Shown: in pieces, positions 1,279-63,881 of the stretch
Layout: the number at the start of each line of letters is the position of its first letter
Position numbering within the stretch: position 1 is the stretch's first letter
DNA from: an uncultured bacterium
GTDB taxonomy: Bacteria > Patescibacteriota > Patescibacteriia > UBA9570 > XYC2-FULL-38-9
NCBI GenBank assembly: GCA_937996685.1
Contig: CALKUP010000015.1
Span: 71,900 to 135,899, forward strand
DNA length: 64,000 nucleotides
Reading direction: 5' to 3'
Notes under the pieces: generated by a model
What the model was told of the DNA's origin: nothing
Seen by the model: the letters and a program-made list of their open reading frames with translations, nothing else
Databases searched by the model: none
Made by a program: the position numbers and the translations under genes

Positions 1279-1283
1279 AGAGA

Positions 1284-2678: not shown

Positions 2679-2692
2679 ATGTGTATTCCTGT

Positions 2693-4528: not shown

Positions 4529-4537
4529 ATTCGTGAA

Positions 4538-4870: not shown

Positions 4871-4882
4871 AAGAGTATTCTT

Positions 4883-6344: not shown

Positions 6345-6367
6345 GTGAATGAAAGTTGATCCAGTAA

Positions 6368-6841: not shown

Positions 6842-6870
6842 ATAGTAATTAGTTAATTGTTATTAATTAT

Positions 6871-9175: not shown

Positions 9176-9624
9176 GGTGAATTCAGTTAATTATATATAA
9201 ATAGTCGTCTTACAAACTACTTGTGTCATATCATATATGATTTTTCACGGAAAGTCAATAAAAACAGGCACAAAATACGGTTTTGCGACCCATCTTGTCT
9301 TGAAAAAGACAGTAATAATGACCTTTTTACAACTCGATCCTCCCACAGTCTGATGTTCGAGTTATCTATGGGGACCAAAGAACAATAGATTTGTTCACTC
9401 GTCTCCGTATATACTCGATAGGATCTGGTTGCCGTAAAAACAATCTGATATGAAATGAGCAAAAAGGAAATCCTTTTACGGAGCAACCGTACAACATGAC
9501 ATGGCTTTTGTCAATCCCTCATTATTCAGAATATCGAAGATTCTGCGCAATGAAGATTGCAGCATGCATTTCGAGGTGAAACACATGCTGTTGCGGCTCT
9601 ATTGCCGCTATCGTGACGAGTTGA

Positions 9625-10710: not shown

Positions 10711-10976
10711 TGAATGCTCCTGCTGAAGTCATGGTGCCGAAAGTGACACACATTACTGCTTCATGTAGCGAATATTCCTTATCACACTTTTTTGCAGAAC
10801 AAAATACCGATACGGTAGATTTGTGTGGAAAAACAATTTTTACTTTCTATAATAGATATACAATATTATAGACAATAGAAATTGTGTGAGCCCGAGGAAC
10901 AATCATGCTGTGTGATGTCGCGGTACGCGAAGCATCGTGATGATTATTCAAAAGACTCACAAGTGAGCTTCTGTTC

Positions 10977-12488: not shown

Positions 12489-12624
12489 TGCTTACTCCTC
12501 TGCTCTGTTACGGAATGTGAATGTGCGTCACAATACGCATACGCGTTGTGAAACCGTATAGAATTAGCACAGTCCTTGTGAAAATACAAGCAATAATAAC
12601 GACTGTGTGTATAAGATTATAAAA

Positions 12625-12770
12625 AGAAAAAAGCCCGCATCAGACAAACGTCATAGCGGGCACAAAAGAACAAAGGGATCTGAATGAATCGTTGTCAGAG
12701 ATATGACCGGAGGGTCCCAGGTAGCGGCAGGTCTGCCGCCGCCTACCTGGGGTTGTCTCGCTGTGAGGTC
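12625..12770. repeat. kup 3' trailer module, copy 1 (imperfect 36-nt hairpin plus rho-independent terminator); inverted copy of 25753..25895
   Basis: Near-identical to the reverse complement of 25753..25895 by direct comparison; contains cccaggtagcggcaggtctgccgccgcctacctggg and gcccgc...gcgggc followed by a T-run. Confidence 0.85.
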
Positions 12771-15149: not shown

Positions 15150-15395
15150 GGCATTTTCCCAACGAAGGTCGCGTGGCACTTGCCGACGCGAACAAAGACG
15201 ATATGGTCAAACGGCACTCGCCGCTGACAACCATCGCCTACACACAGATTTTCGGTCTGCATGTTCTCCGCCTGGTGCGTTACGCCAGCTAAGGGTCCTT
15301 TTGACGCTTTAAAGTTTTTTGTCGTTTGTTCGACAAACAACGATTCATTCATGTGAATGTGCACGTTGTTCGATCGGCCATGGTAAGGAAGAAAA
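15150..15395 (-). promoter_or_regulatory. Conserved kup leader, copy 1 (block A of about 80 nt, a variable hairpin, block B of about 120 nt, then ATG)
   Basis: Blocks A and B are near-identical (about 90-95%) to 23351..23592 upstream of the second kup, although the two coding sequences are only about 35-40% identical in protein. Confidence 0.6.
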
Positions 15396-15729
15396 AGCTT
15401 CTGCTTCTAATTTCTTTTCACGGCAAATCGAGCAACAAAAATGGACACAGCTCGCCTGCTATTGCGATATCTTTTTTCTCTTGATCTATAGTGAATTACC
15501 TACTGTTTTTCTGCCCTCCTTTATGGAGAGAAGTCGTGCGTCGCTCTATTACAGACCAAGATATACCAACAATGAAATGTTCAGGAATACGAGCGTATTA
15601 TTGCCCTGTTTTCCGGGGCAAATGTAACGCTAAAGCTTTTTTATGTCAATAGTTGATATATCAAACTGTGTATATATCAAAAGAACTCCGATTACTTCGG
15701 AGTTCTTCGAAAAAAATGAATCAACTATT

Positions 15730-23236: not shown

Positions 23237-23350
23237 TTGCTCGAAATTGAATGGAAAGTTTCCATTATAAGCGTACTTCCTAGAGAAATTGCAATACCAT
23301 TTTGTTGCTCGATTTGCCCTGAAAAGAAAGACGCGTTTTTTACACCTTCT

Positions 23351-23592
23351 CTTCCTTACCATGGCCGATCGAACAACGTGCACATTCACATGAATGAATC
23401 GTTGTTTGTCGAACAAACGACAAAAACCTACAACGCGCAAGAGGCCTTAACCACTATTAGCGCTAGTGGACGGAGAACACACGGACCAAAAATCTGTGCG
23501 TAGGCGATGGTTGTCAGCGGCGGGTGCCGTTTGACCATATCGTCTTTGATCGCGTCGGCAAGTGCCACGTGACCTTCGTTGGGAAAATACAG
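23351..23592 (+). promoter_or_regulatory. Conserved kup leader, copy 2 (blocks A and B)
   Basis: See copy 1; ends immediately at ATG 23593. Confidence 0.6.
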
Positions 23593-25752
23593 ATGGACAG
23601 ACTCAAATCGTGGCTTGGGTGGCTCGCAAAGCTTCCAAGTTCCTGCAAGGTCCTCTTCTTCGCCGTTCTTGCGGCGTTGAAGGTGGCCGCAATCATCCTC
23701 GAGAAGAGGACGAGGTCGCTCGTCATTGCGACCTGGAACGGGCTGATGACCTATGTCTTCTGGTCTGAAGATGCTGCACCTCAGCAGGCAAAAGACGGTC
23801 ACGGCCATCACCCGGAAACGGGGTGGTTCAGCCTTCGCACACTCTGGAATTCGTTGAGCGCACTCGGCATCGTCTACGGCGATATCGGCACGAGCCCGCT
23901 CTACGCTCTGCGAGCCGCACTTGGCTGGTTCAGGGACTCGTCCGGAGTTGTGAGCGGACATCGAGTTCCGATCATCTTGGACAACGTCCTTGGCGTCGTC
24001 TCCTTGATCAACTGGACGCTGCTCATCGTTGTGACCCTGAAGTACGTGGCGTTTGTCCTCCGCGCTGACAATCGCGGCGAGGGCGGCATCATGTCGCTGA
24101 TGGTTCTCGTGACCAGCACCTTGAAACGGCGCGGCTACATGCTCGCGATGACCGGAGCAACGCTCGCTGGCGTCTTCGGCTCGGCCCTGATCTACGGCGA
24201 CGGTGTTCTGACTCCCGCAGTCAGCGTCCTCGCCGCTGTTGAGGGCCTTGGAACAGCCTACCCAATCCTCAGCTTCGTGGTGGTTCCGCTGGCCTGCCTG
24301 ATCCTGATCGGGCTGTTCAGTGTTCAGTCGAAGGGCACCGGCAAAGTCGGCAAGATCTTCGGGCCGATCATGCTGCTCTGGTTCCTCTTCCTTGGGGGTG
24401 AAGGGCTCTATAACATTCTGGTCTACAAGCCGGAGATGTTGTATGCCCTGAGCCCGGTGTACGCGATCAAGTTCCTGATCGCAAACCCGCTCCTCGGAAG
24501 CTCGGTCATGGGCGGTGTGTTCCTGGTGGCAACCGGTGGCGAAGCACTCTACGCCGACATGGGCCACTTCGGCCCCAAGGCTATCAGGATCGCATGGATG
24601 TTCGTCGTCGCCCCAAGTCTGATGCTTCAGTACATGGGACAAGGCGCGATCGTTCTCGTGAACCCAGAAGCGAAGTTCGACCCGTTCTTCGCCGCTGTTC
24701 ATCTCGAGGGAGAAGCGCTCGCGGTGTTCGTCATCTTCCCGACGATCGCGACGATCATCGCGTCTCAGGCTCTGATCTCCGGTGTGTTCTCGCTGACGGC
24801 GCAGGCAATCCAGCTTGGTCTGCTTCCGCGCATGCCGGTGTATCACACCGACGCGAACGAGCGTGGCCAGATCTATGTCCCGGTGATCAACTGGGTTGTC
24901 TGCCTGATGGTCATACTGACCGTCATTGGTTTCGGCAGCTCGGGTGCACTTGAGTCGGCCTACGGCATCGCCGTCTCTCTGTGCATGCTCTTCACGACGG
25001 GCCTGATGATGTTCGCCAGCTTCTACCTCTGGCACTGGCGTGCTTGGGTGGTTGCGGCAGTCTGGGGTCCAATCCTCATCCTCGAAACGTTCTTCGTCTA
25101 CGCAAACGGCCAGAAGATCGCTCACGGCGGGTGGTATCCGTTGCTCATGGGCGCCGTGCTCTTCACGATCATGACCACCTTCAAGAGGGGTCAGGAGATC
25201 AAGGGCTGGTACATGAGCCGGATGTCTTTGCCGGTTGAGCGCTACCTTGCTGCAGCTCAGGACGCGTTCGTCAACCCAAAAACAGCCATCGCCTTGACAG
25301 CCGCTGCGGACCGCGTTCCGTTGGCGCTGCGGGCGATCCTTCTCGCCCAAAACGTCCGCTACGCACAAACCGTTCTTGCGACGGTCGTCACGGCTGACGA
25401 ACCGTACTGGACCGGAGATCGCGTCACTTGGCGCGACCTCGGCAACGGCATGTGGGAGGCGATCATCCATTACGGCTTCATGGAACAGAGCGCGATCAAT
25501 GTCCCTCTTGCACTGGCGCAGAGCCATGTGCCTGAAGGGGTCGACATCGATGGCATCTACATCCTGGGCCGTGATGCGGTAGTCCCTCATCAGGACGTTG
25601 GCGCGCCTGTTGAAGACGATCAGCCTGCTCCGATGGCCTATTGGCGCGAGAAGCTCTTTGAGCTGATGATCGCCAACGCGCAAAACGCGGTCACCTGGTT
25701 CAAGGTGCCGCCTGGACGCTTCCACCAGATCGGCATTTCGGTTGTGATCTAA
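23593..25752 (+). CDS. kup: KUP/HAK/KT family potassium transporter (copy 2); GC-rich
   Basis: GIVYGDIGTSPLY signature; 719 aa from the ATG that follows the conserved leader (ORF track begins at 23524 inside the leader). Confidence 0.8.
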   Translation: MDRLKSWLGWLAKLPSSCKVLFFAVLAALKVAAIILEKRTRSLVIATWNGLMTYVFWSEDAAPQQAKDGHGHHPETGWFSLRTLWNSLSALGIVYGDIGTSPLYALRAALGWFRDSSGVVSGHRVPIILDNVLGVVSLINWTLLIVVTLKYVAFVLRADNRGEGGIMSLMVLVTSTLKRRGYMLAMTGATLAGVFGSALIYGDGVLTPAVSVLAAVEGLGTAYPILSFVVVPLACLILIGLFSVQSKGTGKVGKIFGPIMLLWFLFLGGEGLYNILVYKPEMLYALSPVYAIKFLIANPLLGSSVMGGVFLVATGGEALYADMGHFGPKAIRIAWMFVVAPSLMLQYMGQGAIVLVNPEAKFDPFFAAVHLEGEALAVFVIFPTIATIIASQALISGVFSLTAQAIQLGLLPRMPVYHTDANERGQIYVPVINWVVCLMVILTVIGFGSSGALESAYGIAVSLCMLFTTGLMMFASFYLWHWRAWVVAAVWGPILILETFFVYANGQKIAHGGWYPLLMGAVLFTIMTTFKRGQEIKGWYMSRMSLPVERYLAAAQDAFVNPKTAIALTAAADRVPLALRAILLAQNVRYAQTVLATVVTADEPYWTGDRVTWRDLGNGMWEAIIHYGFMEQSAINVPLALAQSHVPEGVDIDGIYILGRDAVVPHQDVGAPVEDDQPAPMAYWREKLFELMIANAQNAVTWFKVPPGRFHQIGISVVI

Positions 25753-25895
25753 ACAGCGAGACAATCCCAGGTAGGCGGCGGCAGACCTGCCGCTACCTGG
25801 GACCCTCCGGTCATATCTCTGACAACGATTCATTCAGATCCCTTTGTTCTTTTGTGCCCGCTATGACGTTTGTCTGATGCGGGCTTTTTTCTTAT
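25753..25895. repeat. kup 3' trailer module, copy 2 (hairpin plus terminator)
   Basis: Near-identical to the reverse complement of 12625..12770. Confidence 0.85.
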
Positions 25896-25974
25896 AAAAT
25901 TCCCACTCTTTTTACCTGAACACACAGCAAAAATCAGATTGACAGAAGGGCTATCTCTTTGTATTCTGAGGGCA

Positions 25975-30121: not shown

Positions 30122-30131
30122 AACCATTTTA

Positions 30132-30157
30132 AAATCCCCTTTTACGGGGATTTTTTG
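30132..30157. terminator. Bidirectional terminator hairpin aaaatccccttttacggggatttttt (copy 1 of a duplicated hairpin)
   Basis: Perfect 5-bp GC stem with flanking A-run and T-run; near-identical copy at 31358..31382. Confidence 0.7.
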
Positions 30158-30158
30158 T

Positions 30159-31205
30159 TTACCGTCCAAGCGCTTGGTGGAGTCGCTGAATTTTTTCTGC
30201 GCTCCTTGCTCGTACTTTTTCTTCTGCTCGAACACTGATAACCAAATCTTGAACCATCTGTGCAGTATCCATTACTGCGCTGCTTTTGTAACGCGCCGGA
30301 AACTCTTGCAACCACCGCTGACCATCAGGATCAGTTTGCATCCGGGCGATTGCCTGATTTTGTAACAGTGTCGTGCGAATGTGATCTTCACTCATCTCAG
30401 GAGAGAGTTGTGCAAATACCTGTTCAAATTGTGGCACAAACTTTTTCAATGCATTTTCATATTCACTTTGAATCATCTGCTCAACAAATGCGATATCATC
30501 ATCTGAAATATGCTTTTTTAAATATGTAATATCTGTCAGATCATAAGAGCGGCCAGTTTCAATTTTGTGATACACAATGAGCGCCGGATGTGAGATCGGA
30601 ATTTCACCTCCGCTGCGAGTGCGGTAGAATTCAACCGGCTGCATAAATTTTTTTGGAATTGTCGCGCCTGTGTAACGTGTAACAGTATCCCCATTAGAAT
30701 TACGATGTGAGATATGCAAATCTACAAAGTCGAGAGTGTCCCCTACCTCGATTGAATGATTGACCCCCACCTTTGCGATTTGTATATCATCAAGGTCTTC
30801 ACGCAAAATATCAACAGCGCTTATAGACTCAACCCACCGTTGTCCATCTGCGTCTTTTTCGGCTCGATGTTTTGTAAATTGATACCCATGTTTTTGCAAA
30901 TACGCCTCCACTTTTTCAAGCTCATCATCGAACACACCAATATCGACATCTTTATGGTTACGAACAAAACGCCTTTCGAGTAATGAAATATTGGTTCCAC
31001 CATCAAGTTGCCAGGCAAAATCGGCATCCTTCATCAAATCAGCCAATGCGTCAAGTCGCGCTTCCATAAAATCCACTTGTTCAGGAGTCGGCGGTGTGTA
31101 CTGACCAGCTTCTGCTATTTGAGGTTCTAGAAAAGTCTGAAAATCAGGCACAAATTGGCCCTGTTTTGGCTGAGTATTCTCTAGCATAACCTCTCGATTT
31201 ATCAT
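30159..31205 (-). CDS. Nucleotidyltransferase, ANT(2'')/LinA-like domain, with an uncharacterised C-terminal half
   Basis: 348 aa; LDGGTNISLLERRFVRNHKDVDIGVF matches the G[GS]...D.D NTase motif of lincosamide and aminoglycoside 2''-nucleotidyltransferases; C-terminal 170 aa have no match. Confidence 0.55.
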   Translation of the reverse strand: MINREVMLENTQPKQGQFVPDFQTFLEPQIAEAGQYTPPTPEQVDFMEARLDALADLMKDADFAWQLDGGTNISLLERRFVRNHKDVDIGVFDDELEKVEAYLQKHGYQFTKHRAEKDADGQRWVESISAVDILREDLDDIQIAKVGVNHSIEVGDTLDFVDLHISHRNSNGDTVTRYTGATIPKKFMQPVEFYRTRSGGEIPISHPALIVYHKIETGRSYDLTDITYLKKHISDDDIAFVEQMIQSEYENALKKFVPQFEQVFAQLSPEMSEDHIRTTLLQNQAIARMQTDPDGQRWLQEFPARYKSSAVMDTAQMVQDLVISVRAEEKVRARSAEKIQRLHQALGR

Positions 31206-31357
31206 ACGATTTTATGCTATCACCTAATGAGTCGTACCTGCAAATTGTCGATTATATCAAAGAGTTCAGGGTATAGGAATTTTTGTATTTCTTTTAAGAA
31301 GCATACTAGTATTCACCCACAAACAAGAACACGCCTCTTTAAGAAATCTTTCAATTC

Positions 31358-31382
31358 AATCCCCTTTTAACGGGGATTTTTT
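31358..31382. repeat. Second copy of the 30132..30157 hairpin (aatccccttttaacggggatttttt)
   Basis: Direct comparison; the two copies flank the nucleotidyltransferase gene. Confidence 0.7.
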
Positions 31383-31451
31383 GTTTGTGTGAATAGCGTC
31401 TTTCTACTATTATTGTGGTAGCATGGATACTTAATATAGTAAGGATTTTAT

Positions 31452-32186: not shown

Positions 32187-32214
32187 AGACAAACGATGTG
32201 TAATGAAATTATGC

Positions 32215-32242
32215 GGAGCTCACTACTCCGCATTTTTTTATT
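32215..32242. terminator. Terminator hairpin gcggagctcactactccgc plus T-run (copy 1)
   Basis: Perfect 6-bp stem; a degenerate copy lies at 33265..33292. Confidence 0.6.
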
Positions 32243-32333: not shown

Positions 32334-33170
32334 CTACTCTGCCTGCTTTTTTGGAGACCCCGTGCCCCTAGCTGCGGAAGGCATCAGCTCCACAAGCCTG
32401 CTTTGAAGCTCGACCGCTTCGACTTCACGATCTGCTGCTTGACGCAAGACTCGGTCTCGGGCTGCGTTAAGCTGCGCCTGCGCATCAGCCAGGTTATCGA
32501 GCGCAAGCGTCAGTGTTGCGGGATCATGCGCCTTCACTTCTGCATCCCGGAGATGCTCCGCGATAAGCGCTGCGCAATCAACCTGCGGCGGATCTGTATT
32601 GATCTTGTAGGTCTTCATGGGCGTCAAGAAATACAGATCAATGAAGCCGTTATAAGCGCGATTTATGTCGGAAAACGAGGCCCACTTCGGATACGCCATT
32701 CTTAACTTACTAAGATCTACGATTCCTGGATTCTGAGGATGAGGCCCGATGAAGCATTCATCGAAAAAGAAGATCATGTTTTTGATGTATTGAAGCATTT
32801 GCTCACGCTGTGCCTGCAACACCAACAGATCCTCTCCTGTCGCACCCTGGATGGACTTGTTGATTGCCGAGAGCCAGCTCAACACGCGACTGACGTACAC
32901 CGGCAGCAAATCAAAGTGCTGGTAAAGCGCAGTGAACTGCGGGTTAGTCACAGGACACTCATCACGAAAACGGCGCTGGTAACCTTTGAGCGCGGTACGC
33001 AATTGGTCCTCCAGGCTTTGCTCCTGAATCTGCGGCTGCTCCTTGCGCTCTTGCATGGAGTAATACCGAGGCAACACCCTGAAGACACCGAACAAAACAC
33101 CGGCGACGCCACCAAGCATAAAAAAGTCATACACGACGCCTCCAATCCTTGATTTATCAAGGTACATCAA
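32334..33170 (-). CDS. Hypothetical protein with an N-terminal TM helix; GC-rich gene
   Basis: 278 aa; local GC about 58%; no recognisable domain. Confidence 0.45.
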   Translation of the reverse strand: MMYLDKSRIGGVVYDFFMLGGVAGVLFGVFRVLPRYYSMQERKEQPQIQEQSLEDQLRTALKGYQRRFRDECPVTNPQFTALYQHFDLLPVYVSRVLSWLSAINKSIQGATGEDLLVLQAQREQMLQYIKNMIFFFDECFIGPHPQNPGIVDLSKLRMAYPKWASFSDINRAYNGFIDLYFLTPMKTYKINTDPPQVDCAALIAEHLRDAEVKAHDPATLTLALDNLADAQAQLNAARDRVLRQAADREVEAVELQSRLVELMPSAARGTGSPKKQAE

Positions 33171-33264
33171 TCAACGGTTGATTCCGCTATGAGATTGACG
33201 GTAGACCCTATCAAAAGCAACGGCGGCAGTCAATAGTATAATTTATAATTTTATTTTCAATGCT

Positions 33265-33292
33265 GCAGAGCTCACTACTCCACATTTTTTTA
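33265..33292. repeat. Degenerate second copy of the 32215..32242 hairpin (gcagagctcactactccac plus T-run)
   Basis: 24 of 28 nt identical; two substitutions disrupt the stem. Confidence 0.55.
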
Positions 33293-33461
33293 TCAAAAAT
33301 CACACAAAGTGAAGCATGCTATCATATAAAAAGCCTTGGATTCAACGACACACAACACCCCTCATCGCCGCGGTCTTTCTGTTGAGCTTTGCCGTTGTTT
33401 TACTCACCTCTTCATGGAACGACTCGACGATTATTGATGAAATCTCCCACATTGGAGCTGG

Positions 33462-35494: not shown

Positions 35495-35588
35495 AAGCTC
35501 ATATCTCTGGAGAGATGGCTGAGCGGTCGAAAGCAACAGTTTACTAAACTGTCGATCCTTCACGGGATCCCAGGGTTCGAATCCCTGT
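35495..35588 (+). tRNA. tRNA-Ser, anticodon read as ACT (unusual), long variable arm, CCA encoded
   Basis: Manual alignment to bacterial tRNA-Ser: 3-bp D-stem, anticodon stem ACAGT/ACTGT with loop TTACTAA, T-loop TTCGAAT. Confidence 0.6.
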
Positions 35589-35614
35589 CTCTCCGCCACA
35601 TTTTCAACCACCGT

Positions 35615-36523: not shown

Positions 36524-36595
36524 GTTGAGCAACGTCGTAAAGCATCGCGGACCTGACATCTCCGCATCTTTTTTTATTCAACTATTCTGTGTAGA

Positions 36596-53275: not shown

Positions 53276-53352
53276 TGGTACTCCCTCCTGGACTTGAACC
53301 AGGGACCGCCGAGATATAAGCTCGGTGCTCTAACCACCTGAGCTAAGGGAGC
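53276..53352 (-). tRNA. tRNA-Ile-like with anticodon TAT (UAU), CCA encoded
   Basis: Manual fold; the body closely resembles bacterial tRNA-Ile2 (ileX) but the anticodon loop is CTTATAT rather than CTCATAA. Confidence 0.65.
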
Positions 53353-57214: not shown

Positions 57215-57287
57215 GTGATTTTCATTATTCTATATACGAGAAATTTGTATTGCTCGTGCGCCCTACTATAATTGAATTCAACGAAAA

Positions 57288-57304
57288 AAGCAACAAATGT
57301 AATA
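57288..57304. repeat. 17-bp direct repeat tcaacgaaaaaagcaac (left copy)
   Basis: Identical copy at 58278..58294; the two flank gene 57377..58192. Confidence 0.8.
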
Positions 57305-57376
57305 AAAAAATTGCCACGCCACCTATGTAGGTAATAGGCAGCGCAGCGAGCCGGGCTGAAGTGTCGTTTTACAGCT

Positions 57377-58192
57377 TTACGGCTTTTTCCCGAACTCGAG
57401 CGAGGAGTTGAAGCGTGCATTAACACTCGCAAGCCAAGTCTTCACTGCTGTGTTGAATCCACCTCCACGGTGCGGAATCCTTGTAACATCCACACCGATA
57501 AGGTCTCGAACTGTGGCTTTGTACCACAATGGATCAATAACCCTCCTTGCCCTACTCTCCCAAAGAGTACCCTCGTAAGAACTGGTTGGACGAAGCTCGT
57601 CAAGCTCCTTTTCAGCAATGGCTTGAAACAATGCCTTTCGAAAGGCACCGACGATCTGCGCATTCAATGTTTTTCTGCCTGGAGCAAAAACGACATTTGC
57701 CGCTGCAGACGCTAGAAACTCTTCGATTGTATTTACCTCTGTTTCCAACGGAGATGCAATGACGGTACTGAATCCTTCTGGAGCTAACTCAAAGTCCGTT
57801 CCGAACTCTGCGTTGATATTTGCAAGCCCTTGACGAATTCTTTGAATACTACGATCGCCAATCCTTTGACTCCTTTCCTTCAGGGCTTCATTATTGCACT
57901 GAAGTAAATCATCCAGACTAACAATCCCTGCGTACGCCAACGGCTCAATGACTGAGGTGCGCCATACGCGAGCAGACCGCATCAATTCAGGACTATCAAG
58001 CCTTAAGCTCAATAGATAATTACTGCGATCAGCTGGATTTGCGCCTAGAAGGCTTTCTGTTTCAACAACACGCAAAGCATCTGCGGCCAATTTAATGACA
58101 ATGAGTCCATCCGCACTTTTCAAAACAAAGGAACCATCCGACTCCTTGACCAAGGTGGTTGCAGTAGAACGCAGGTCAATTTCAACGTACAT
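57377..58192 (-). CDS. Hypothetical protein (about 50% GC) flanked by perfect 17-bp direct repeats
   Basis: 271 aa ORF, no recognisable motif. Confidence 0.45.
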   Translation of the reverse strand: MYVEIDLRSTATTLVKESDGSFVLKSADGLIVIKLAADALRVVETESLLGANPADRSNYLLSLRLDSPELMRSARVWRTSVIEPLAYAGIVSLDDLLQCNNEALKERSQRIGDRSIQRIRQGLANINAEFGTDFELAPEGFSTVIASPLETEVNTIEEFLASAAANVVFAPGRKTLNAQIVGAFRKALFQAIAEKELDELRPTSSYEGTLWESRARRVIDPLWYKATVRDLIGVDVTRIPHRGGGFNTAVKTWLASVNARFNSSLEFGKKP

Positions 58193-58277
58193 CAGACCTC
58201 CTCATCCGCTCAATTTTCGTATATTCCAGCACCATGCCGAAACACTACGAAATGAGGGACAAAACACCATACCACGC

Positions 58278-58294
58278 TCAACGAAAAAAGCAAC
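58278..58294. repeat. 17-bp direct repeat tcaacgaaaaaagcaac (right copy)
   Basis: Identical to 57288..57304. Confidence 0.8.
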
Positions 58295-58396
58295 GTTTCG
58301 CGCATCTCAGATGTAACAGCGCGAACACAAACAGCGCCTTTGCGATTCACCGGTGAGCATGTATACTCCAATGCAACACGGCGCAACCGATTGTTT

Positions 58397-59518
58397 ATGA
58401 AAAAACCAGCCATTCTTATTGTAAAATTCCCCTATTCTTCAACATTTGGCGGGGGCGAAAAGCACACTCTGACCATCGTTGAAAAGCTATCCGATCAGTA
58501 CGATTTTTATCTTGCTTCAACATGCGCTGTATTATTGAAAGAGTTTGAGGCCCGAAACTGGAATGCACGACGTTATTGGATGCCAACCGAACCGGTCACT
58601 CCAAAAGCCTTGCTTCTATTGCTCTGCATCTGGCCAATTGCGCTCGTTCAACTGATTCGCATTGCGCTGCACTATCGCCACACATACGGCGTTCGCACAC
58701 TCTATTGCCTGTCACTCACCGAAAAAATCATCCTAACCCCATGGGCACGCCTGTTTGGGATGCGCGTTCTCTGGATCGAACATCTGCAAATTGAGCGCTG
58801 GCTCCTGCAAAGCCCGTTGCGCTTGCTCTATGTTCTTTGGTCTCGTTTTGCGACAATTATTACCGTTGTTGAAGCAGTTCGCACTCAATTAATCGCGCTC
58901 GGTGTTCCAGAAAAAGCTGTCACTGTCATTTATAATTCAGTGCACGCACTTGATTTCACACCGCCACATACGCGCGCGCTCGCCGAAAACAAGCCATTTC
59001 ACGTGCTGTTTGTTGGTCGTCTTGCTATAGAAAAAGGCGTGAGCGACCTCATTTCAGCAGTCGCGAGCATTCAGACAACGATTCCGAACATCTCATTGAC
59101 CATTGCCGGTGATGGACCTGAAAAACAAGCCTTAGAGCAACAAGTTACTACTCTCAATCTCAGTAAAACCGTCACATTTGCCGGATTTATTAACGATGTT
59201 GCGAGCGCACTACATGCCGCTGACGTGCTTGTTTTGCCGTCCACCCGACGTGAAACCTTTGGTATTATTGCCGCAGAAGCCCTCGCCTGCGAACTTCCCG
59301 TCATTGTCACAACTGCCGGCGGTGTCTCCGAGGTAGTTGGTGATTGCGGGTGGATTGTGCCGCCTCACCATCCAGAGGCAATTGCGCGCGCACTCACAGA
59401 AATCTACACGGATTACGAAAATGCCTATAAAAAGGCGAAAAATGGCCGAAAACGGATGATTGAGCGCTTTTCAGAAGAAACAATGATCGAACAATACAGC
59501 ATTGCTCTGCGTGGTTGA
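58397..59518 (+). CDS. Glycosyltransferase family 4
   Basis: About 373 aa from MKKPAILIV; C-terminal GT4 motif region (TFGIIAAEALACELPVIV). Confidence 0.7.
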   Translation: MKKPAILIVKFPYSSTFGGGEKHTLTIVEKLSDQYDFYLASTCAVLLKEFEARNWNARRYWMPTEPVTPKALLLLLCIWPIALVQLIRIALHYRHTYGVRTLYCLSLTEKIILTPWARLFGMRVLWIEHLQIERWLLQSPLRLLYVLWSRFATIITVVEAVRTQLIALGVPEKAVTVIYNSVHALDFTPPHTRALAENKPFHVLFVGRLAIEKGVSDLISAVASIQTTIPNISLTIAGDGPEKQALEQQVTTLNLSKTVTFAGFINDVASALHAADVLVLPSTRRETFGIIAAEALACELPVIVTTAGGVSEVVGDCGWIVPPHHPEAIARALTEIYTDYENAYKKAKNGRKRMIERFSEETMIEQYSIALRG

Positions 59519-59643
59519 CGAATCCGCCCCTCTTTGGTATACTCTTTTCACTTATTTAATATCTTGGATCTTCTGAGCACTTGTTGCAGGATCCGCCGCA
59601 ATACGCAGTAATATGCGATTCGGTTAACATTTTTGCTTGTTTT

Positions 59644-60855
59644 ATGTCTACAAAAACAACACAACATCAAATGGATGAATTACTTGATTCAAACCCAGAT
59701 GTTATTTTCCCTGCTGTTGGCGCCCTCGTCGATGGTATTGTTATTAGTGCGCGTAATAATGAAGTACACGTTGATTTAAACGGTATCGCGAGTGGCGTCG
59801 TTCGTGGTCCAGAGCTCGTTGACGAATCTGGAATCTTCCAAAACCTACAACCTGGCGACCCTGTGACTGTCACCGTTGTTGACGCTGAAAATGAACTTGG
59901 TGTTCTTGAATTGTCATTCCGTGAAGCTGGCCATAAAAAAGCCTGGGATGAACTTCAAGGTAAATACGAAGCAAAAGACATTGTTGAAGGTCTTATTTTG
60001 GATGCAAATAAAGGTGGTTTGATTGTTCGCCTCGGCAATGTCAACGGCTTCCTTCCTGTATCACAACTCACTGTGGAACATTACCCACGTGTTGAAGGCG
60101 CAAACAAAGCCAAAATCTTGGAACGCCTCAAAAGTTATGTTGGCGAATACTTCAAATTGCGTATTATCGACGTGAACGAAGCTGACAACAAACTTATTTT
60201 CTCAGAAAAAGCTGCAAAAGCTGATGAACAATCACAACAATTGGAAAGTTACGCTGTTGGCAACGTTGTTGAAGGCGTTGTGACTGGTGTTGTTGATTTC
60301 GGTGCATTCGTTGAATTTGGCGAAGGCTTGGAAGGTTTGGTGCATATTTCTGAACTTGCATGGCAACGTATTGATAATCCAAAAGAAATCATCAATGTTG
60401 GCGACAAGGTGAAAGCGCAAATCATCAGTATTGAAAACGGCAAAATCTCACTGTCAATCCGTCGTTTGCAAAACGATCCATGGGCTGAAGTTGCGAAAAA
60501 ATACAACGTTGGAGATGTTGTTGAAGGAACTGTTTTGAAACTCAACCCATTTGGCGCCTTTGTTGAACTCGACAATGACATTCATGGACTTGCGCATATT
60601 TCTGAACTTTCTTGGAAGAAAATCAATTCTCCAGAAGATGTATTGAAAGCTGGCGAACGTTCAAAATTCAAAATTGTCAGTATTGAGCCAAATAATCATC
60701 GTCTTGGACTCTCTTTGAAACAATTGACTGAAAAGCCAAAGGATTTAGAAGAAAAGGAAGAAAAAACTCCTCTCGACGAAACTCGAGGCGAATCGGAAGA
60801 GGCAAAGGTTGAAGAAGTAAAAGAAGAAGTTGCTGAAGAAAAAGCGGCAGAATAA
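59644..60855 (+). CDS. Ribosomal protein S1-like protein (four S1 domains) with an acidic C-terminal tail
   Basis: About 403 aa from MSTKTT; repeated S1 folds (GxVxG...FGAFVE). Confidence 0.65.
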   Translation: MSTKTTQHQMDELLDSNPDVIFPAVGALVDGIVISARNNEVHVDLNGIASGVVRGPELVDESGIFQNLQPGDPVTVTVVDAENELGVLELSFREAGHKKAWDELQGKYEAKDIVEGLILDANKGGLIVRLGNVNGFLPVSQLTVEHYPRVEGANKAKILERLKSYVGEYFKLRIIDVNEADNKLIFSEKAAKADEQSQQLESYAVGNVVEGVVTGVVDFGAFVEFGEGLEGLVHISELAWQRIDNPKEIINVGDKVKAQIISIENGKISLSIRRLQNDPWAEVAKKYNVGDVVEGTVLKLNPFGAFVELDNDIHGLAHISELSWKKINSPEDVLKAGERSKFKIVSIEPNNHRLGLSLKQLTEKPKDLEEKEEKTPLDETRGESEEAKVEEVKEEVAEEKAAE

Positions 60856-60915: not shown

Positions 60916-60941
60916 GCCTCGTACCATGTGAGACAGCATAT

Positions 60942-61033
60942 AATAAGACAAAACCCGAAACACCGCGACAACAATCTTCATGGAAGATGTTGTGTTGGTG
61001 CTCCGGGGAGCCGAGCGACGAGACGGAGTCGAC
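60942..61033 (-). repeat. Cassette 3' module, copy A (about 90-nt imperfect hairpin plus GAGTCGACTC palindrome)
   Basis: About 90% identical to 62642..62748; lies directly downstream of the stop codon of gene 61034..61441. Confidence 0.8.
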
Positions 61034-61441
61034 TCAGGCCTTTGGAACGCGGCGGTAGTCTTTGAATGTAGGGTGTTGCAGCACACCAACATTCGTATCC
61101 ACCAGATGCCTCCTTTCTTCAATTTCCCCCGCTTCGACGAGGCCGTTAAGCCAGTCAAGCAGACTGGAGTCAAAGCCGGGATACACCCACTCGCCCTCAG
61201 GCGCGTCGGCGAACATTTGCGCAAAGTGCGCTTTTTTAGCCAAGCGCTCTTTCTCCTGGTCTTCCGGGGTCACAGTCCTCACAGACAGAACGGTACCGCC
61301 AGGGTAGGTCTGCTTGTAACCTCCTGGGATCAACTCCAAAATTCCGTCATCCTGAGGCACGCGTTTTTTCGATTTTTTACGGAAAGAAGACCGCAAGAGG
61401 AGCAAGAGACACAGGACAGACAGACCGATGAAAAACCACAT
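61034..61441 (-). CDS. Small GC-rich membrane-anchored hypothetical protein (cassette gene A)
   Basis: About 135 aa from MWFFIGLSV; N-terminal TM; the upstream part of the track ORF (61442..61573) is the shared 5' module and is probably non-coding. Confidence 0.45.
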   Translation of the reverse strand: MWFFIGLSVLCLLLLLRSSFRKKSKKRVPQDDGILELIPGGYKQTYPGGTVLSVRTVTPEDQEKERLAKKAHFAQMFADAPEGEWVYPGFDSSLLDWLNGLVEAGEIEERRHLVDTNVGVLQHPTFKDYRRVPKA

Positions 61442-61447
61442 GAGGCC

Positions 61448-61557
61448 TCCGGTTTGACCTAGACGGTCAAGGTTGCAACGAACATCAACTCTTTTTGCAG
61501 CACCATGCCGCGGAAAAGCTGACGCTCGATCATACTGATTTCTATTACATCCGTCAA
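61448..61557 (-). promoter_or_regulatory. Cassette 5' module, copy A: sigma70-like promoter (TTGACG, 17 nt, TATGAT) plus a conserved 5'UTR of about 75 nt
   Basis: Near-identical to 63080..63165; the -10 element lies inside the conserved block and the -35 just outside it. Confidence 0.55.
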
Positions 61558-61649
61558 GAGAACGCATTAACACATAGGGTTGACTTTCGGTTTTTATTCG
61601 GTTATTATTTTTATACCTTTATACGAATACAAAAAAACAATTATTTACT

Positions 61650-62636
61650 ATGAAAAAGAAGCCTGTATCTCAAACACTCATTTATCAAACAAAATCCGGA
61701 GCCTTGGAACTGCGAGGCGATTATTCGCGTGAAACCATTTGGGCAACACGCACACAAATGGCCGAGATATTCAATGTGAATCCACCGGCGATTTCAAAGC
61801 ATATTCAAAATATCTATAAAGAAGACGAACTAAAGCGAAAAGCAACTAGTTCCAAAATGGAACTAGTTCAAGACGAAGGGGGCCGCCAAATTAAACGTAC
61901 AGTTGATATTTATAATCTCGATGTCATTATAGCCGTTGGCTATCGAATTAATTCGGTAGTTGGCACTCAATTCCGACAATGGGCGACCAAAACTCTCCGC
62001 TCACACATTGTCGATGGCTACACCATCAACAAAAAACGAATCAAATACAACCTTGATTCATTTTTACAATCAGTCGATGACATTCGCGCGCTATTGCCTA
62101 ACGAACAAGCTATTGATCCAAAAAATGTACTGGATTTAGTGAAAGAGTTTGCAACCACCTGGATGTCACTGGATGCGTATGATAAAGACACCTTACAAAT
62201 CAGTGGAACAACGAAAAAATCAGTCGAACTCAATGGAGAAGAATTACTCAGCGCCATTCAAACATTACGGGCAGAACTCATCAAAAAACGTGAGGCAACG
62301 GACATTTTTGCGCAAGAACGCACAATAAAAAGCGTTGAAGGGATTATCGGAAACGTCATGCAATCATTTAGTGGTAAACCTGTCTATCCAACAATTGAAG
62401 AAAAGGCCGCTCATTTACTCTATTTTATGGTGAAAAATCATCCATTTGTTGATGGAAATAAGAGATCCGGGGCATTTGCCTTTGTATGGTTTTTACGAAA
62501 AACGCCGATTGCAGGCGCTCAAAACATGAACCCTGCAGCCCTCACTGCCCTCACACTGCTTATCGCTGAAAGCAATCCGACCAAAAAAGACCAAATGATT
62601 GCCTTAGTGACAACGCTATTGCGCGGGCAGAAATAA
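61650..62636 (+). CDS. Fic/Doc-family protein with an N-terminal RhuM-like DNA-binding domain
   Basis: 328 aa; Fic motif HPFVDGNKRSGA; N-terminal RhuM/KilA-N-like region. Confidence 0.7.
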   Translation: MKKKPVSQTLIYQTKSGALELRGDYSRETIWATRTQMAEIFNVNPPAISKHIQNIYKEDELKRKATSSKMELVQDEGGRQIKRTVDIYNLDVIIAVGYRINSVVGTQFRQWATKTLRSHIVDGYTINKKRIKYNLDSFLQSVDDIRALLPNEQAIDPKNVLDLVKEFATTWMSLDAYDKDTLQISGTTKKSVELNGEELLSAIQTLRAELIKKREATDIFAQERTIKSVEGIIGNVMQSFSGKPVYPTIEEKAAHLLYFMVKNHPFVDGNKRSGAFAFVWFLRKTPIAGAQNMNPAALTALTLLIAESNPTKKDQMIALVTTLLRGQK

Positions 62637-62641
62637 ACTAT

Positions 62642-62756
62642 AACAGTACTCTAATAAAACAAAACCCCGAAACACCGCGACAACAATCTTCATGGAAGAC
62701 GTTGTGTTGGTGTCCGAGGGAGCCGAGCGACGAGACGGAATCGACTTAGCGTTCAG
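62642..62756 (-). repeat. Cassette 3' module, copy B
   Basis: See copy A. Confidence 0.8.
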
Positions 62757-63062
62757 CTACTGCCCTTGCTCGAGGGCAGCAATTTGAGCCTCGACCTCAG
62801 GAGTGCAGGGGACATTGGCCATAACGAACCCGTCATGACCAAGGCTATCGTGCTTGAAAAAGCACAGATTTGTTCTGAAGTCCCGGATGTAATACCCTTC
62901 GAGAACCTCTTCTTGAGAGTCTGCCAAGCGAGAATCTTCTTCGGGCCAGAACAACATAAAGAGGATCGAAAAAATCAAGAAGGCGCAGAAGATCAACGAG
63001 AACAGAGCCTCCGCATTCTTGTCGAGGAAACCCTTAAACCAAGACCGCAGATTTGCGAACAT
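62757..63062 (-). CDS. Small GC-rich membrane-anchored hypothetical protein (cassette gene B)
   Basis: 101 aa; N-terminal TM helix; unrelated in sequence to gene A. Confidence 0.45.
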   Translation of the reverse strand: MFANLRSWFKGFLDKNAEALFSLIFCAFLIFSILFMLFWPEEDSRLADSQEEVLEGYYIRDFRTNLCFFKHDSLGHDGFVMANVPCTPEVEAQIAALEQGQ

Positions 63063-63079
63063 GGGACACCTCTGGTAAT

Positions 63080-63180
63080 CGACCTAAACGGCCGAGGTTG
63101 CAACGAACATCAACTCTTTTTGCAGCACCATGCCGCGGAAAAGCTGACGCTCGATCATACTGACTACACCCAAAAAAGTC
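63080..63180 (-). promoter_or_regulatory. Cassette 5' module, copy B: promoter (TTGACT, 16 nt, TATGAT) plus conserved 5'UTR
   Basis: See copy A. Confidence 0.55.
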
Positions 63181-63278
63181 AAGGAAATACCCAAGCTCAG
63201 AAAGAACAATATTGCTTGGCGAAAGAGCGTACAATATGCTATACTTTGCCTATAAATCTCTGAATTTCTTACTATTTT

Positions 63279-63881
63279 ATGCATATTTACTGGCACGGAC
63301 TTTCCTGCGTGAAGCTCCAAGTGGGCGATATCAATGTCGTCATTAACCCATTCCAAAACGAGACTGGCCTTTCAATGCCAAAGCTCAAAGTTGACATCGT
63401 CGCGACAACAAATCTCGATGACCCACAAACCAACAACATCGATCGCCTTCAAGGAGATCCTATCATTGTCCAAAACGCAGGTGAATATGAAATTCACGGC
63501 GTGTTCTTTTATGGACTGCAACACAAATCAGGCAACACCTTGTTTGCAATTGAAGCTGAAGGCATGCGCTTGGGTCATCTTGGCAGCGAACCCGTTGAAC
63601 TCACCTCTCAAGAGTTAGAATTATTCGAAGGCGTCGATATTTTGTTCCTCCCAATCACTGGCGACCAAAAATTAATCGCGAAACTCATCTCGCACATTGA
63701 ACCACGCGTCATTATCCCGATCCAATACGCGTCAAAGGGTGTCAAAGCAAAACTCGACAATCTCGAAGGCTTCAGTAAAGAAATGGGAATGAAGATGCCT
63801 GAACCAGAAACAAAAGTCATCATCAAAGAAAAGCAATTGCCTGCCGAAGAAACACAAGTGATTGTCCTTGCAGCCGCTTAA
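63279..63881 (+). CDS. MBL-fold metallo-hydrolase
   Basis: 200 aa; beta-lactamase-fold pattern (HGVFFYG...GHLGSE...). Confidence 0.55.
   Translation: MHIYWHGLSCVKLQVGDINVVINPFQNETGLSMPKLKVDIVATTNLDDPQTNNIDRLQGDPIIVQNAGEYEIHGVFFYGLQHKSGNTLFAIEAEGMRLGHLGSEPVELTSQELELFEGVDILFLPITGDQKLIAKLISHIEPRVIIPIQYASKGVKAKLDNLEGFSKEMGMKMPEPETKVIIKEKQLPAEETQVIVLAAA

What the first reader, a model, noticed from the sequence alone, without database searches (positions are those of the whole stretch)
60942..63180. Twin mini-cassettes: two unrelated small GC-rich membrane-protein genes share a module from the promoter -10 through the 5'UTR and a 3' hairpin module, bracketing a Fic/Doc gene
Genes 61034..61441 and 62757..63062 both lie on the minus strand, both have an N-terminal TM helix, and have no sequence similarity to each other. 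Each is preceded by the same conserved block of about 85 nt (61448..61535 and 63080..63165). In both copies this block contains a TATGAT -10 element, and a TTGAC(G/T) -35 element lies 16-17 nt further upstream in non-conserved sequence. Each gene is followed immediately after its stop codon by the same module of about 90 nt (60942..61033 and 62642..62748). That module is an imperfect 18-bp-arm hairpin (caccgcgacaacaatcttc...gaagatgttgtgttggtg) with a GAGTCGACTC palindrome. A Fic/Doc RhuM-like gene sits between the two cassettes on the opposite strand. This architecture, variable cargo between fixed 5' promoter/UTR and 3' hairpin modules, resembles integron cassettes or toxin-immunity islands but lacks canonical attC cores. 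Together with the kup case it suggests a lineage-specific cassette system.
Basis: seen in the sequence. Interest (0 to 1): 0.75.

Follow-up and report, generated by a model that had tools for sequence, protein, structure and literature searches.

The report
Shared promoter/terminator modules around swapped small genes
Two unrelated small membrane-protein genes in an uncultured Kerfeldbacteria (CPR) genome carry near-identical promoter-leader and terminator modules and sit in a spot between two housekeeping genes where close relatives hold zero to three or more different such genes, much like the "mobile regulatory cassettes" known from T4-type phages.

Summary
A ~95-nt 5' block (61440-61540 / 63063-63165, 93-96% identical) and a ~99-nt 3' block (60938-61036 / 62649-62748, 90-91%) flank two unrelated minus-strand ORFs of 135 and 101 aa. 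A RhuM/Fic gene lies between them.

Each unit reads as a self-contained transcription unit:
- a sigma70-like promoter, TTGAC(G/T)-17-TATGAT;
- a two-hairpin leader with GGAGG;
- a small protein with an N-terminal TM helix;
- a long hairpin plus U-tract, i.e. an intrinsic terminator.

The organism is a Candidatus Kerfeldbacteria (Patescibacteria). In close relatives the same rpsA(S1)-MBL interval holds 0, 1 or at least 2-3 cassettes with different cargos. Homologues of the 3' module flank three cargo types. Homologues of the leader flank about six, including a third, diverged copy at window 33132-33210.

Changes in the hairpins keep pairing through G-U wobble and compensatory substitutions, which points to RNA function. 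The window has no attC cores, no TIR/TSD and no recombinase.

Best reading: moron/PeSL-like expression cassettes in a hypervariable hotspot, shuffled by recombination within the shared modules, with the modules homogenised inside each genome. The 5' module meets the published definition of a "putative mobile promoter". This is a new variant of a known kind. The exchange mechanism is inferred, not shown.

The parts
60938..61036 (-). 3' module of cassette A: short 3'UTR, then a ~22-pair imperfect hairpin (core 60954-61008), then a U-rich tail. Predicted intrinsic terminator. Convergent with the rpsA terminator.
   Evidence: Repeat D1. Fold -40.3 kcal/mol, z=-5.2. CM R1 120.6 bits. Pairing kept by wobble and compensatory changes across winA, winB and L002.
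61034..61441 (-). Cargo A: 135-aa ORFan with an N-terminal TM helix. GC3 0.61, against 0.32-0.49 for neighbouring native genes.
   Evidence: No Pfam, PADLOC or PHROG hit. Only itself found in 5.8 billion proteins. Representative search gave only repeat-type hits. AF2 pLDDT 54.
61440..61540 (-). 5' module of cassette A: -10 TATGAT (61534-61529), a long 15+6-bp hairpin H1, a short hairpin H2 (TTGACC..GGTCAA), and SD GGAGG.
   Evidence: Repeat D2. Fold -38.4 kcal/mol, z=-4.6. CM R2 122.6 bits. Its 3' half is homologous to the L055/L057 leaders.
61552..61557 (-). -35 box TTGACG of cassette A, 17 nt upstream of the -10, outside the near-identical block.
   Evidence: alignment.
61650..62636 (+). RhuM/Fic-DOC gene, 328 aa, with its own promoter-like site at 61580-61608. 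Full-length match to the PADLOC candidate defence family PDC-S23. Native-like composition (GC3 0.38).
   Evidence: Pfam PF13310 and PF02661. PADLOC PDC-S23, E=4e-112. PHROG Doc-like toxin. for the promoter-like site.
62649..62748 (-). 3' module of cassette B: terminator hairpin plus U-tract.
   Evidence: CM R1 109.2 bits.
62757..63062 (-). Cargo B: 101-aa protein with an N-terminal TM helix and a small beta-alpha domain. It has a diverged homologue next to a homologous 3' module in relative L002.
   Evidence: Smith-Waterman score 90 against shuffles of 23±4. 42% aa identity, 55% nt identity, dS saturated. AF2 pLDDT 72. No fold match.
63063..63165 (-). 5' module of cassette B: -10 TATGAT at 63159-63154, then H1, H2 and SD. 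H2 differs from copy A by a compensatory U-A to C-G change.
   Evidence: CM R2 129.5 bits.
63177..63182 (-). -35 box TTGACT of cassette B. The surrounding CCTTGACTTTTT is shared with the MBL-proximal cassettes of relatives L001 and L053.
33132..33210 (-). Third, diverged member of the leader family (TAGGGT -10, H1, H2, GGAGG). It lies upstream of a ~265-aa ORF (32334-33170) with a hydrophobic N-terminal stretch (read from the translation; no hydropathy computed), at an unrelated locus.
   Evidence: blastn 68% over 103 nt to the L055 leader, E=5e-7. CM R3 71.1 bits, E=4.7e-22. Sequence.
59581..60855 (+). rpsA (ribosomal protein S1), the left border of the variable interval.
63279..63881 (+). 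MBL-fold hydrolase gene, the right border of the variable interval.
   Evidence: Pfam PF13483. Homologues. Synteny.

Best explanation
Each mini-cassette is an autonomous one-gene expression unit. It has a sigma70-type promoter and a ~85-nt leader. The leader starts with a long hairpin and ends with a short hairpin just before a GGAGG ribosome-binding site. A small membrane-anchored protein follows, then an intrinsic terminator made of a long hairpin plus a U-tract.

The promoter-leader and the terminator belong to module families that are spread through one clade of Candidatus Kerfeldbacteria. There they flank unrelated small ORFs in a hypervariable interval between rpsA and an MBL-fold hydrolase gene.

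I infer that cargo turnover works as proposed for the PeSL 'mobile regulatory cassettes' of T4-type phages. Recombination within the shared modules, or within the conserved flanking genes after DNA uptake, inserts, deletes or replaces whole ORFs while keeping them expression-ready. The two module copies in this genome are more alike than orthologous copies in relatives. They are therefore either recently duplicated or kept uniform by gene conversion.

Shown: the repeats, the unrelated cargos, the RNA-type structure conservation, the presence/absence and cargo polymorphism in relatives, and the absence of recombinase genes and attC features.

Inferred: promoter and terminator activity, the stabilising or regulatory role of the leader, and recombination as the exchange mechanism.
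For: - Modules and unrelated cargos.
- Promoter and terminator features.
- RNA-level structure. The 5' hairpin has four G-U pairs that would be C-A mismatches on the other strand. The 3' hairpin keeps pairing through one-sided wobble changes and two UA-to-CG compensatory changes. In L053 its 5' arm (ORF-proximal) carries the extra substitutions while the 3' arm is nearly invariant, yet the hairpin still folds. Leader stem H1 is 97.6% paired with two compensatory pairs.
- Hotspot content in relatives that share 82% nt identity in rpsA:
  - L054 is empty.
  - L001, L053 and L057 each carry one different cassette.
  - L002 plus L055, assembled from the same sample, carry at least 2-3.
- Module homologues with other cargos. 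3' module: L002 at 81%, L053 at 47.9 bits, E=2.6e-9. Leader: L002small, L055, L056 and L057 are 85-94% alike with different ORFs behind them. The window 33-kb copy adds another. winA vs L055/L057 scores 30-31 against shuffles of 13.6±2.3.
- Within-genome module identity is 90%, against 64-73% between genomes.
- Cargo composition is foreign-like: GC3 0.58-0.63 against 0.32-0.49.
- No integrase, transposase or recombinase among any ORF of 150 aa or more in the window.
- PeSL features and model are taken from PMC2839356. The mobile-promoter definition is from PMC3488235.
Against: - No recombination intermediate or junction was seen.
- Only two near-identical copies of each module are visible in the 64 kb available. 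The remaining ~100 kb of the source contig could not be read.
- Exact-match scans of the viral, genome and metagenome collections found no further copies.
- The relatives are mostly short contigs.
- Homologous recombination explains shuffling of existing cassettes. It does not explain how unrelated ORFs first came to sit between the same modules with breakpoints within a few bases of the start and stop codons.
- In PeSLs the terminator and promoter form one composite intergenic motif. Here the 3' and 5' modules are separate sequences, and a 1.1-kb gene on the opposite strand lies between them.
Confidence: 0.55

Rival explanations
1. The conserved leader is primarily a cis-regulatory RNA, such as an attenuator, a protein- or ligand-binding leader, or an mRNA stabiliser. 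It would define a regulon of small membrane proteins. The twin copies would be an ordinary recent duplication of a regulatory region, with no cassette mobility involved.
For: A two-hairpin architecture with covariation is conserved across genomes. A diverged copy sits at an unrelated locus upstream of another N-terminal-TM protein. Every cargo whose N-terminus is known and that carries this leader is hydrophobic at the N-terminus. This reading is compatible with the main explanation rather than exclusive of it.
Against: It does not explain why the 3' module is shared as well. It does not explain why 91-96% identical flanks enclose unrelated ORFs, nor why the interval differs in cassette number and content in every close relative. 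No Rfam family matches.
Confidence: 0.2
2. The cassettes are toxic small-membrane-protein loci, either type I toxin-antitoxin-like or abortive-infection-like. The structured UTRs would control translation, and an unseen antisense RNA would act as the antidote. The hotspot would then be a defence or addiction island.
For: Cassettes in relatives encode 33-aa and 47-aa hydrophobic peptides typical of type I toxins. The leaders are highly structured. A candidate defence gene, RhuM/Fic of family PDC-S23, lies in the same hotspot. The cargo turns over rapidly: B vs L002B shows dS saturated and dN 0.58, while the neighbouring rpsA is 82% identical.
Against: Cargos A and B are 135 and 101 aa with soluble C-terminal parts. 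Cargos in L001 (152 aa) and L053 (100 aa) have no TM helix. No promoter-like site was found on the opposite strand inside the cassettes. No PADLOC or PHROG hit for any cargo. 5'-3' UTR complementarity is no better than in shuffles, -41 against -39.9±4.7 kcal/mol.
Confidence: 0.1
3. The cassettes move by site-specific recombination at the hairpins. This could be integron/attC-like, or like the single-strand hairpin ends of IS200/IS605 elements, using a recombinase encoded elsewhere in the genome.
For: Imperfect long hairpins lie directly after the ORFs. The cargo is variable, and relatives carry tandem arrays in one orientation. Only 64 kb of the genome was visible.
Against: No GTTRRRY or RYYYAAC cores are present in the modules (read directly). 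No tyrosine or HUH recombinase appears among any window ORF of 150 aa or more. The cassettes carry their own promoters. Hairpin conservation relies on G-U wobble, and a U-tract follows, which fits an RNA terminator. The 5' and 3' hairpins are unrelated to each other, and there are no TIRs or target duplications.
Confidence: 0.05
4. It is a plain tandem duplication of one cassette whose coding part then diverged, or an assembly artefact that placed two alleles of one locus in tandem.
For: The direct repeats are spaced 1625-1712 nt apart. The genome is a metagenome assembly.
Against: The cargos differ in length (408 vs 306 nt) and show no protein or DNA similarity, while the flanks are 91-96% identical. 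Cargo B has its own homologue in another genome. Independent assemblies from other samples show the same cassette architecture and multi-cassette arrays. A complete, intact Fic gene with its own promoter-like site separates the copies.
Confidence: 0.04

Closest known systems
PeSL (promoter-early stem-loop) mobile regulatory cassettes of T4-type phages (Arbiol et al. 2010, PMC2839356; Comeau et al. 2014, PMC4122927)
   Same: A conserved motif of about 100 bp combines a sigma70-like promoter, a stem-loop and a Shine-Dalgarno sequence, ending at the start codon. The motifs flank ORFans in hyperplastic regions. Insertions, deletions and replacements of single ORFs between close relatives are bounded by the motifs. 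G-T pairs occur in the stems. The model is homologous recombination between motifs.
   Different: This is a bacterial (CPR) chromosome, not a phage. The terminator and the promoter-leader are two separate module families rather than one composite intergenic motif. Only 2-3 copies are visible here, against about 50 per phage genome. Mini-circles were not tested.
Putative mobile promoters (Matus-Garcia, Nijveen and van Passel 2012, PMC3488235)
   Same: Upstream regions of 50 nt or more at 80% identity or more precede non-homologous CDSs within one genome. In their Treponema example the conservation also stops about 5 nt before the start codon.
   Different: Here a 3' terminator module is co-duplicated with the promoter. 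The units also sit in a strain-variable hotspot. The published survey did not address 3' ends or CPR genomes.
Phage morons (Hendrix and colleagues; from my own knowledge)
   Same: A single gene with its own promoter and factor-independent terminator is inserted between two resident genes and differs from them in base composition.
   Different: Morons are defined in prophages or phages. They do not share near-identical flanks with one another.
Integron gene cassettes / attC arrays (from my own knowledge)
   Same: Variable small ORFs, many of them ORFans, are each followed by an imperfect hairpin repeat and form arrays in one orientation.
   Different: There are no attC core sites and no integrase. 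The cassettes have their own promoters. There is a conserved 5' module. The hairpin behaves as an RNA terminator.
Repeated type I toxin-antitoxin loci (Ldr/Rdl, Ibs/Sib, Hok/Sok; from my own knowledge)
   Same: Multi-copy loci encode small hydrophobic proteins with long structured UTRs.
   Different: In those loci the ORFs of the copies are homologous. Here they are unrelated, mostly larger than 60 aa, and no antisense RNA is evident.

Membership tests
Integron cassette / attC | attC site with inverse core RYYYAAC and core GTTRRRY at the base of the hairpin | tested here: not met
   Direct reading of both strands of the 3' modules: neither motif is present at the stem base.
Integron cassette / attC | Integron integrase (tyrosine recombinase) and attI adjacent to the array | tested here: not met
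   Pfam scan of every window ORF of 150 aa or more found no recombinase. The rest of the genome was not visible.
Integron cassette / attC | Cassettes are generally promoterless | tested here: not met
   Each cassette has a 10/12 sigma70-like site: TTGAC(G/T)-17-TATGAT.
PeSL mobile regulatory cassette | A ~100-bp conserved intergenic motif with sigma70 -35/-10 boxes, a stable stem-loop, SD, and the start codon of the downstream ORF | tested here: met
   5' module plus -35 box. Features as described in PMC2839356.
PeSL mobile regulatory cassette | Motifs flank ORFans in hyperplastic regions, and indels or replacements between close relatives are bounded by them | tested here: met
   The cargos are ORFans. 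The interval holds 0, 1 or at least 2-3 cassettes with different cargos in relatives.
PeSL mobile regulatory cassette | Resides in a T4-type phage genome, with dozens of copies per genome | tested here: not met
   The window is a CPR chromosome carrying a V/A-ATPase operon, ribosomal proteins, FtsH and tRNAs. Only 3 leader copies are present in 64 kb.
PeSL mobile regulatory cassette | Recombination between motifs yields circular mini-circles | not testable with these tools
   Needs read data or PCR from the source sample.
Putative mobile promoter (PMP) | Upstream regions align over more than 50 nt at 80% identity or more | tested here: met
   83-95 nt at 93-96% identity. Criterion from PMC3488235.
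Putative mobile promoter (PMP) | The downstream CDSs and the upstream CDSs do not align | tested here: met
   Cargo A vs cargo B gives E=10. The upstream neighbours are a Fic gene and an MBL gene, which belong to different families.
Moron | Promoter + gene + intrinsic terminator as one unit, with deviant base composition | tested here: met
   GC3 0.61-0.63 against 0.32-0.49. Based on sequence only; activity was not tested.
Moron | Located in a phage or prophage | tested here: not met
   No phage genes in the window. No phage-record match apart from the Fic gene.
Type I toxin-antitoxin | Hydrophobic toxin peptide, usually under 60 aa | tested here: not met
   A is 135 aa and B is 101 aa. Cassettes in relatives do encode 33-aa and 47-aa TM peptides.
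Type I toxin-antitoxin | Antisense or divergent small RNA antitoxin | tested here: inconclusive
   No promoter-like site on the + strand inside the cassettes, but this was only a consensus scan.
Intrinsic (Rho-independent) terminator | Stable hairpin directly followed by a U-rich tract at the 3' end of a gene | tested here: met
   A ~22-pair hairpin is followed by UUUUGUCUUAUUA. It is longer and more A/U- and G-U-rich than the simple scan's model, so one search did not list it.
MITE / IS-type transposable element | Terminal inverted repeats and target-site duplication | tested here: not met
   No inverted repeat between the cassette ends, and no duplicated flanks.

The most novel reading that the evidence does not exclude
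This clade of CPR bacteria may have a recombinase-independent gene-capture system. Fixed native expression adaptors, a promoter-leader on one side and a terminator on the other, would take in foreign GC-rich ORFs with breakpoints within a few bases of the start and stop codons. Examples would be the small membrane proteins here and the two 35%-identical kup transporters elsewhere in the window. The adaptors would be kept uniform within a genome by gene conversion. That would be a chromosomal functional analogue of an integron built from RNA-level regulatory modules. The leader would also be an undescribed cis-regulatory RNA family.
Probability: 0.2. Interest if true: 0.8.

Novelty: new variant of a known kind. 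Interest (0 to 1): 0.5.

Why it matters
CPR/Patescibacteria have tiny, streamlined genomes, and little is known about how they gain and express new genes. This locus shows a concrete route. A spot between two housekeeping genes turns over small genes from strain to strain, and each gene sits in a ready-made promoter-leader-terminator frame.

If this is general, it extends the phage concept of mobile regulatory cassettes to bacterial chromosomes. It would also help explain how horizontally acquired, compositionally foreign ORFs become expressed at once in these organisms. Finally, it provides a candidate new leader RNA motif and a set of fast-evolving small membrane proteins that may act in host or phage interactions.

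Tried and rejected
- Exact-match scans for the 5' module in viral, GTDB-genome and JGI metagenome collections found nothing. The 3' module found nothing in viral contigs. In metagenomes it gave four chance 20-mers in unrelated 57-60% GC contigs.
- The window's own contig could not be fetched through the look-up of encoding contigs.
- Rfam gave nothing at gathering or permissive thresholds.
- CM R2, built from the two window leaders, found no other copy. CM R3, built from the relatives' leaders, did not recover winA or winB. Their homology rests on a local alignment.
- Cargo function stayed unknown. Pfam, PADLOC and PHROGs were empty. Protein searches found nothing. The representative search returned only repeat-type matches to a 25-residue stretch. 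The AF2 models had low to moderate confidence. Foldseek against PDB gave E>1.
- Phage and plasmid blastn hit only the Fic gene.
- 5'-3' UTR pairing was no better than in shuffles.
- Upstream ORF idea: the ATG inside the conserved TTGATG would give MFVATLTV* in the window. Its frame, length and stop are not conserved among family members, and in the 33-kb copy it is in frame with the main ORF. I therefore dropped it (reading).
- An apparent breakpoint at the hairpin loop in L053 turned out to be higher divergence of one arm with pairing kept.
Full report
**Observation**

The region was read on both strands. The repeat finder reports two direct-repeat families. The first is 61456-61538 vs 63081-63163 (83 nt, 96%). 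The second is 60950-61037 vs 62662-62749 (88 nt, 91%). Gapped alignment and covariance-model hits extend them to 61440-61540 / 63063-63165 and 60938-61036 / 62649-62748. The longest identical runs are 69, 34 and 22 nt. Probes allowing 3 mismatches find exactly two copies of each module in the 64-kb window, with none expected by chance. A sensitive blastn finds no further copy.

The enclosed minus-strand ORFs are 61034-61441 (135 aa) and 62757-63062 (101 aa). They are unrelated at protein level (E=10) and at DNA level. Homology between the two units ends a few bases before each ATG, just after GGAGG. It resumes at the stop codon in A and 8 nt after the stop in B. The GAGTCGACTC palindrome is present only in copy A.

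**Anatomy**

- Promoters: both units have a sigma70-like site among the four 10/12 sites, the best score in a 7-kb scan, TTGACG-17-TATGAT and TTGACT-17-TATGAT. The -35 lies outside the near-identical block.
- Leader: it folds into a long hairpin of 15+6 bp and a short hairpin just before the SD (-38.4 and -37.3 kcal/mol, z=-4.6 and -3.9). The long hairpin contains four G-U pairs that are mismatches on the opposite strand. The short hairpin differs between copies A and B by a compensatory U-A to C-G change.
- 3' module: it folds into a ~22-pair hairpin followed by UUUUGUCUUAUUA (z=-5.2 for A). This is the form of an intrinsic terminator.
- No Rfam family matches.
- Cargo composition: cargo GC3 is 0.61-0.63, against 0.32 for rpsA, 0.38 for Fic and 0.49 for MBL.
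- Cargo proteins: both have an N-terminal hydrophobic helix. Both are database orphans.
- Gene between the cassettes: a RhuM/Fic-DOC protein. It matches the PADLOC candidate defence family PDC-S23 over its full length (E=4e-112).

**Organism and context**

Relatives of the adjacent S1 protein identify the source as Candidatus Kerfeldbacteria, in the Patescibacteria. The window is ordinary chromosome. It carries a V/A-type ATPase operon, TrkH, Kup, NhaB, ribosomal protein L19, FtsH, cell-envelope genes and six tRNAs. No integrase, transposase or other recombinase appears among any ORF of 150 aa or more.

**The interval in relatives**

The interval was fetched through S1 and through MBL-protein homologues and their cluster members. 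Flanking genes are 79-82% identical in DNA. The rpsA-MBL interval differs in every genome:

| Locus | Content of the rpsA-MBL interval |
|---|---|
| L054 | Empty, about 190 nt |
| L001 | One minus-strand GC-rich ORF of about 152 aa, no TM helix |
| L053 | One unrelated 100-aa ORF |
| L057 | One 47-aa hydrophobic peptide |
| L002 | A 33-aa hydrophobic peptide cassette, then a cargo-B homologue |
| L055 (same sample as L002) | Yet another ORF start next to MBL |
| A JGI contig without DNA | A 95-aa minus-strand gene |

All cargos lie on the strand opposite to the flanking genes. Each has its own TTGAC..TA...T promoter.

**Module families**

The window's 3' module has homologues after the cargo-B homologue in L002 (81%) and after the unrelated L053 cargo (CM R1 47.9 bits, E=2.6e-9). 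There is a marginal hit at the orthologous position in L001 (E=0.09).

Across these copies the hairpin is preserved by one-sided wobble changes and two UA-to-CG compensatory changes. In L053 the 5' arm (ORF-proximal) carries the extra substitutions while the 3' arm is nearly invariant, and the hairpin still folds. This pattern fits selection on an RNA structure.

The leaders of L002small, L055/L056 and L057 are 85-94% identical to one another although their ORFs differ. The window contains a third, diverged member of this leader type at 33132-33210(-), upstream of a ~265-aa ORF with a hydrophobic N-terminal stretch, read from its translation (CM R3 71 bits, E=4.7e-22).

The SD-proximal half of the winA/winB leader, TTGATGTTC[GTTGCAAC]CTTGACCGTCTAGGTCA, is homologous to the L055/L057 type. 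The alignment score is 30-31 against 13.6±2.3 in shuffles, with 0-1 of 1000 shuffles as high. The basal stem of hairpin 1 is 97.6% paired across six leaders, with two compensatory pairs.

The promoter's CCTTGACTTTTT is shared by the MBL-proximal cassettes of the window, L001 and L053.

**Rates**

The window's two 3' modules are 90% identical to each other but only 64-73% identical to those of other genomes, including copies at orthologous positions. The modules are therefore recently duplicated or homogenised within a genome. Cargo B and its L002 homologue share 42% of residues and 55% of nucleotides, with saturated dS, while the neighbouring rpsA is 82.6% identical. The cargo evolves, or is exchanged, far faster than the backbone.

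**The kup parallel**

The two kup genes, 12771-15149(-) and about 23590-25752(+), are both Pfam K_trans and only 35% identical as proteins. They nevertheless share about 290 nt of 5' flank (85% overall, blocks at 91-97%) and 141 nt of 3' flank (99%). Homology stops within a few bases of the start and stop codons. These flanks are unrelated to the mini-cassette modules. The pattern of shared flanks around divergent ORFs is therefore recurrent in this genome, but it does not rest on a single universal module.

**Interpretation**

The units are self-contained expression cassettes in a hypervariable hotspot. By the published operational definition, the 5' module is a putative mobile promoter: more than 50 nt at 80% identity or more upstream of non-homologous CDSs. 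In that paper's Treponema example the conservation also stops about 5 nt before the start codon (PMC3488235).

The closest mechanistic model is the PeSL of T4-type phages. There, conserved promoter/stem-loop/SD motifs flank ORFans in hyperplastic regions, and recombination between the motifs deletes, inserts or replaces single ORFs (PMC2839356).

In this window, recombination between the two 5' modules would delete Fic plus cassette B. Recombination between the two 3' modules would delete cassette A plus Fic. Either event would leave the single-cassette states seen in relatives. This step is inferred. No junction or circle was observed.

Integron-like, transposon-like and simple-duplication readings fail specific tests (see the membership table and the rival explanations). 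A regulatory role for the leader and a toxic or defence role for the cargos remain open, and both are compatible with the main reading.

**Limits**

- Only 64 kb of a 168-kb contig could be read.
- The relatives are mostly short contigs.
- Promoter, terminator and leader functions are predictions from sequence.
- How unrelated ORFs first came to lie between the same modules is unexplained.

Noticed in passing
window 12624-12764 / 25753-25893 and 15153-15444 / 23297-23588: Two inverted kup K+ transporter genes are only 35% identical as proteins. They share a 141-nt 3' flank (99%) and a ~290-nt 5' flank (85% overall, blocks at 91-97%) that end within a few bases of the stop and start codons. The long shared leader has no Rfam match and could be an undescribed cis-regulatory RNA.
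   Followed up: partly
window 9500-15200 and 23500-25900: Islands of 57-64% GC lie in a ~43% GC genome. They encode an unknown 361-aa protein, NhaB, and the two Kup transporters (GC3 0.69-0.77). These look like horizontally acquired ion transporters placed next to native TrkH and CitMHS genes.
   Followed up: partly
window 33132-33210 (-), ORF 32334-33170 (-): A third, diverged copy of the promoter-leader family lies upstream of a ~265-aa ORF with a hydrophobic N-terminal stretch and no Pfam match, at a locus unrelated to the twin cassettes.
   Followed up: partly
window 58224-58250 (-), upstream of ORF 57377-58192 (-): The leader of a 271-aa ORF of unknown function contains GTGTTTCGG|CATGGTGCTGG. 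This is a 14-nt match to the 3'-module stem joined at a shared CGG to a 16-nt match to the 5'-module loop region. It may be a relic of recombination between the two module types. Each match alone is not significant (E about 0.9).
   Followed up: no
window 57215-59580 compared with L054, L057, L001, L002: The FtsH-rpsA interval is also variable. It is about 240-320 nt in L054 and L057 and about 600-900 nt in L001 and L002. In the window it is 2.3 kb and carries the 271-aa ORF and a GT4 glycosyltransferase. rpsA therefore has variable intervals on both sides.
   Followed up: partly
L003 11492-12697, L005 11533-12666, L007 3713-5320 (all minus strand): More distant Kerfeldbacteria carry 65-75% GC islands directly downstream of rpsA. 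These hold 377-535-aa minus-strand ORFs with no Pfam match; the two also scanned against PHROGs (L003, L007) had no hit there either. The position seems to accept foreign GC-rich genes across the group.
   Followed up: partly
window 32207-32241, 33259-33293, 36541-36575; 30129-30160, 31355-31386: Near-identical terminator-like hairpins (69-89% over 32-35 nt) recur after different genes. This suggests that reuse of small regulatory modules is common in this genome.
   Followed up: no
window 61650-62636 (+): The RhuM/Fic-DOC gene matches the PADLOC candidate defence family PDC-S23 over its full length (E=4e-112). It is absent from the same interval in all relatives examined.
   Followed up: partly
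window 35509-35598 (+) and 53276-53352 (-): ARAGORN calls a tRNA-Ser with anticodon ACT and a tRNA-Ile with anticodon TAT. Both are unusual anticodons for bacteria.
   Followed up: no
window 661-8880 (-): A V/A-type ATPase operon (subunits D, B, A, C/AC39, c, I) lies next to the ion-transporter cluster.
   Followed up: no
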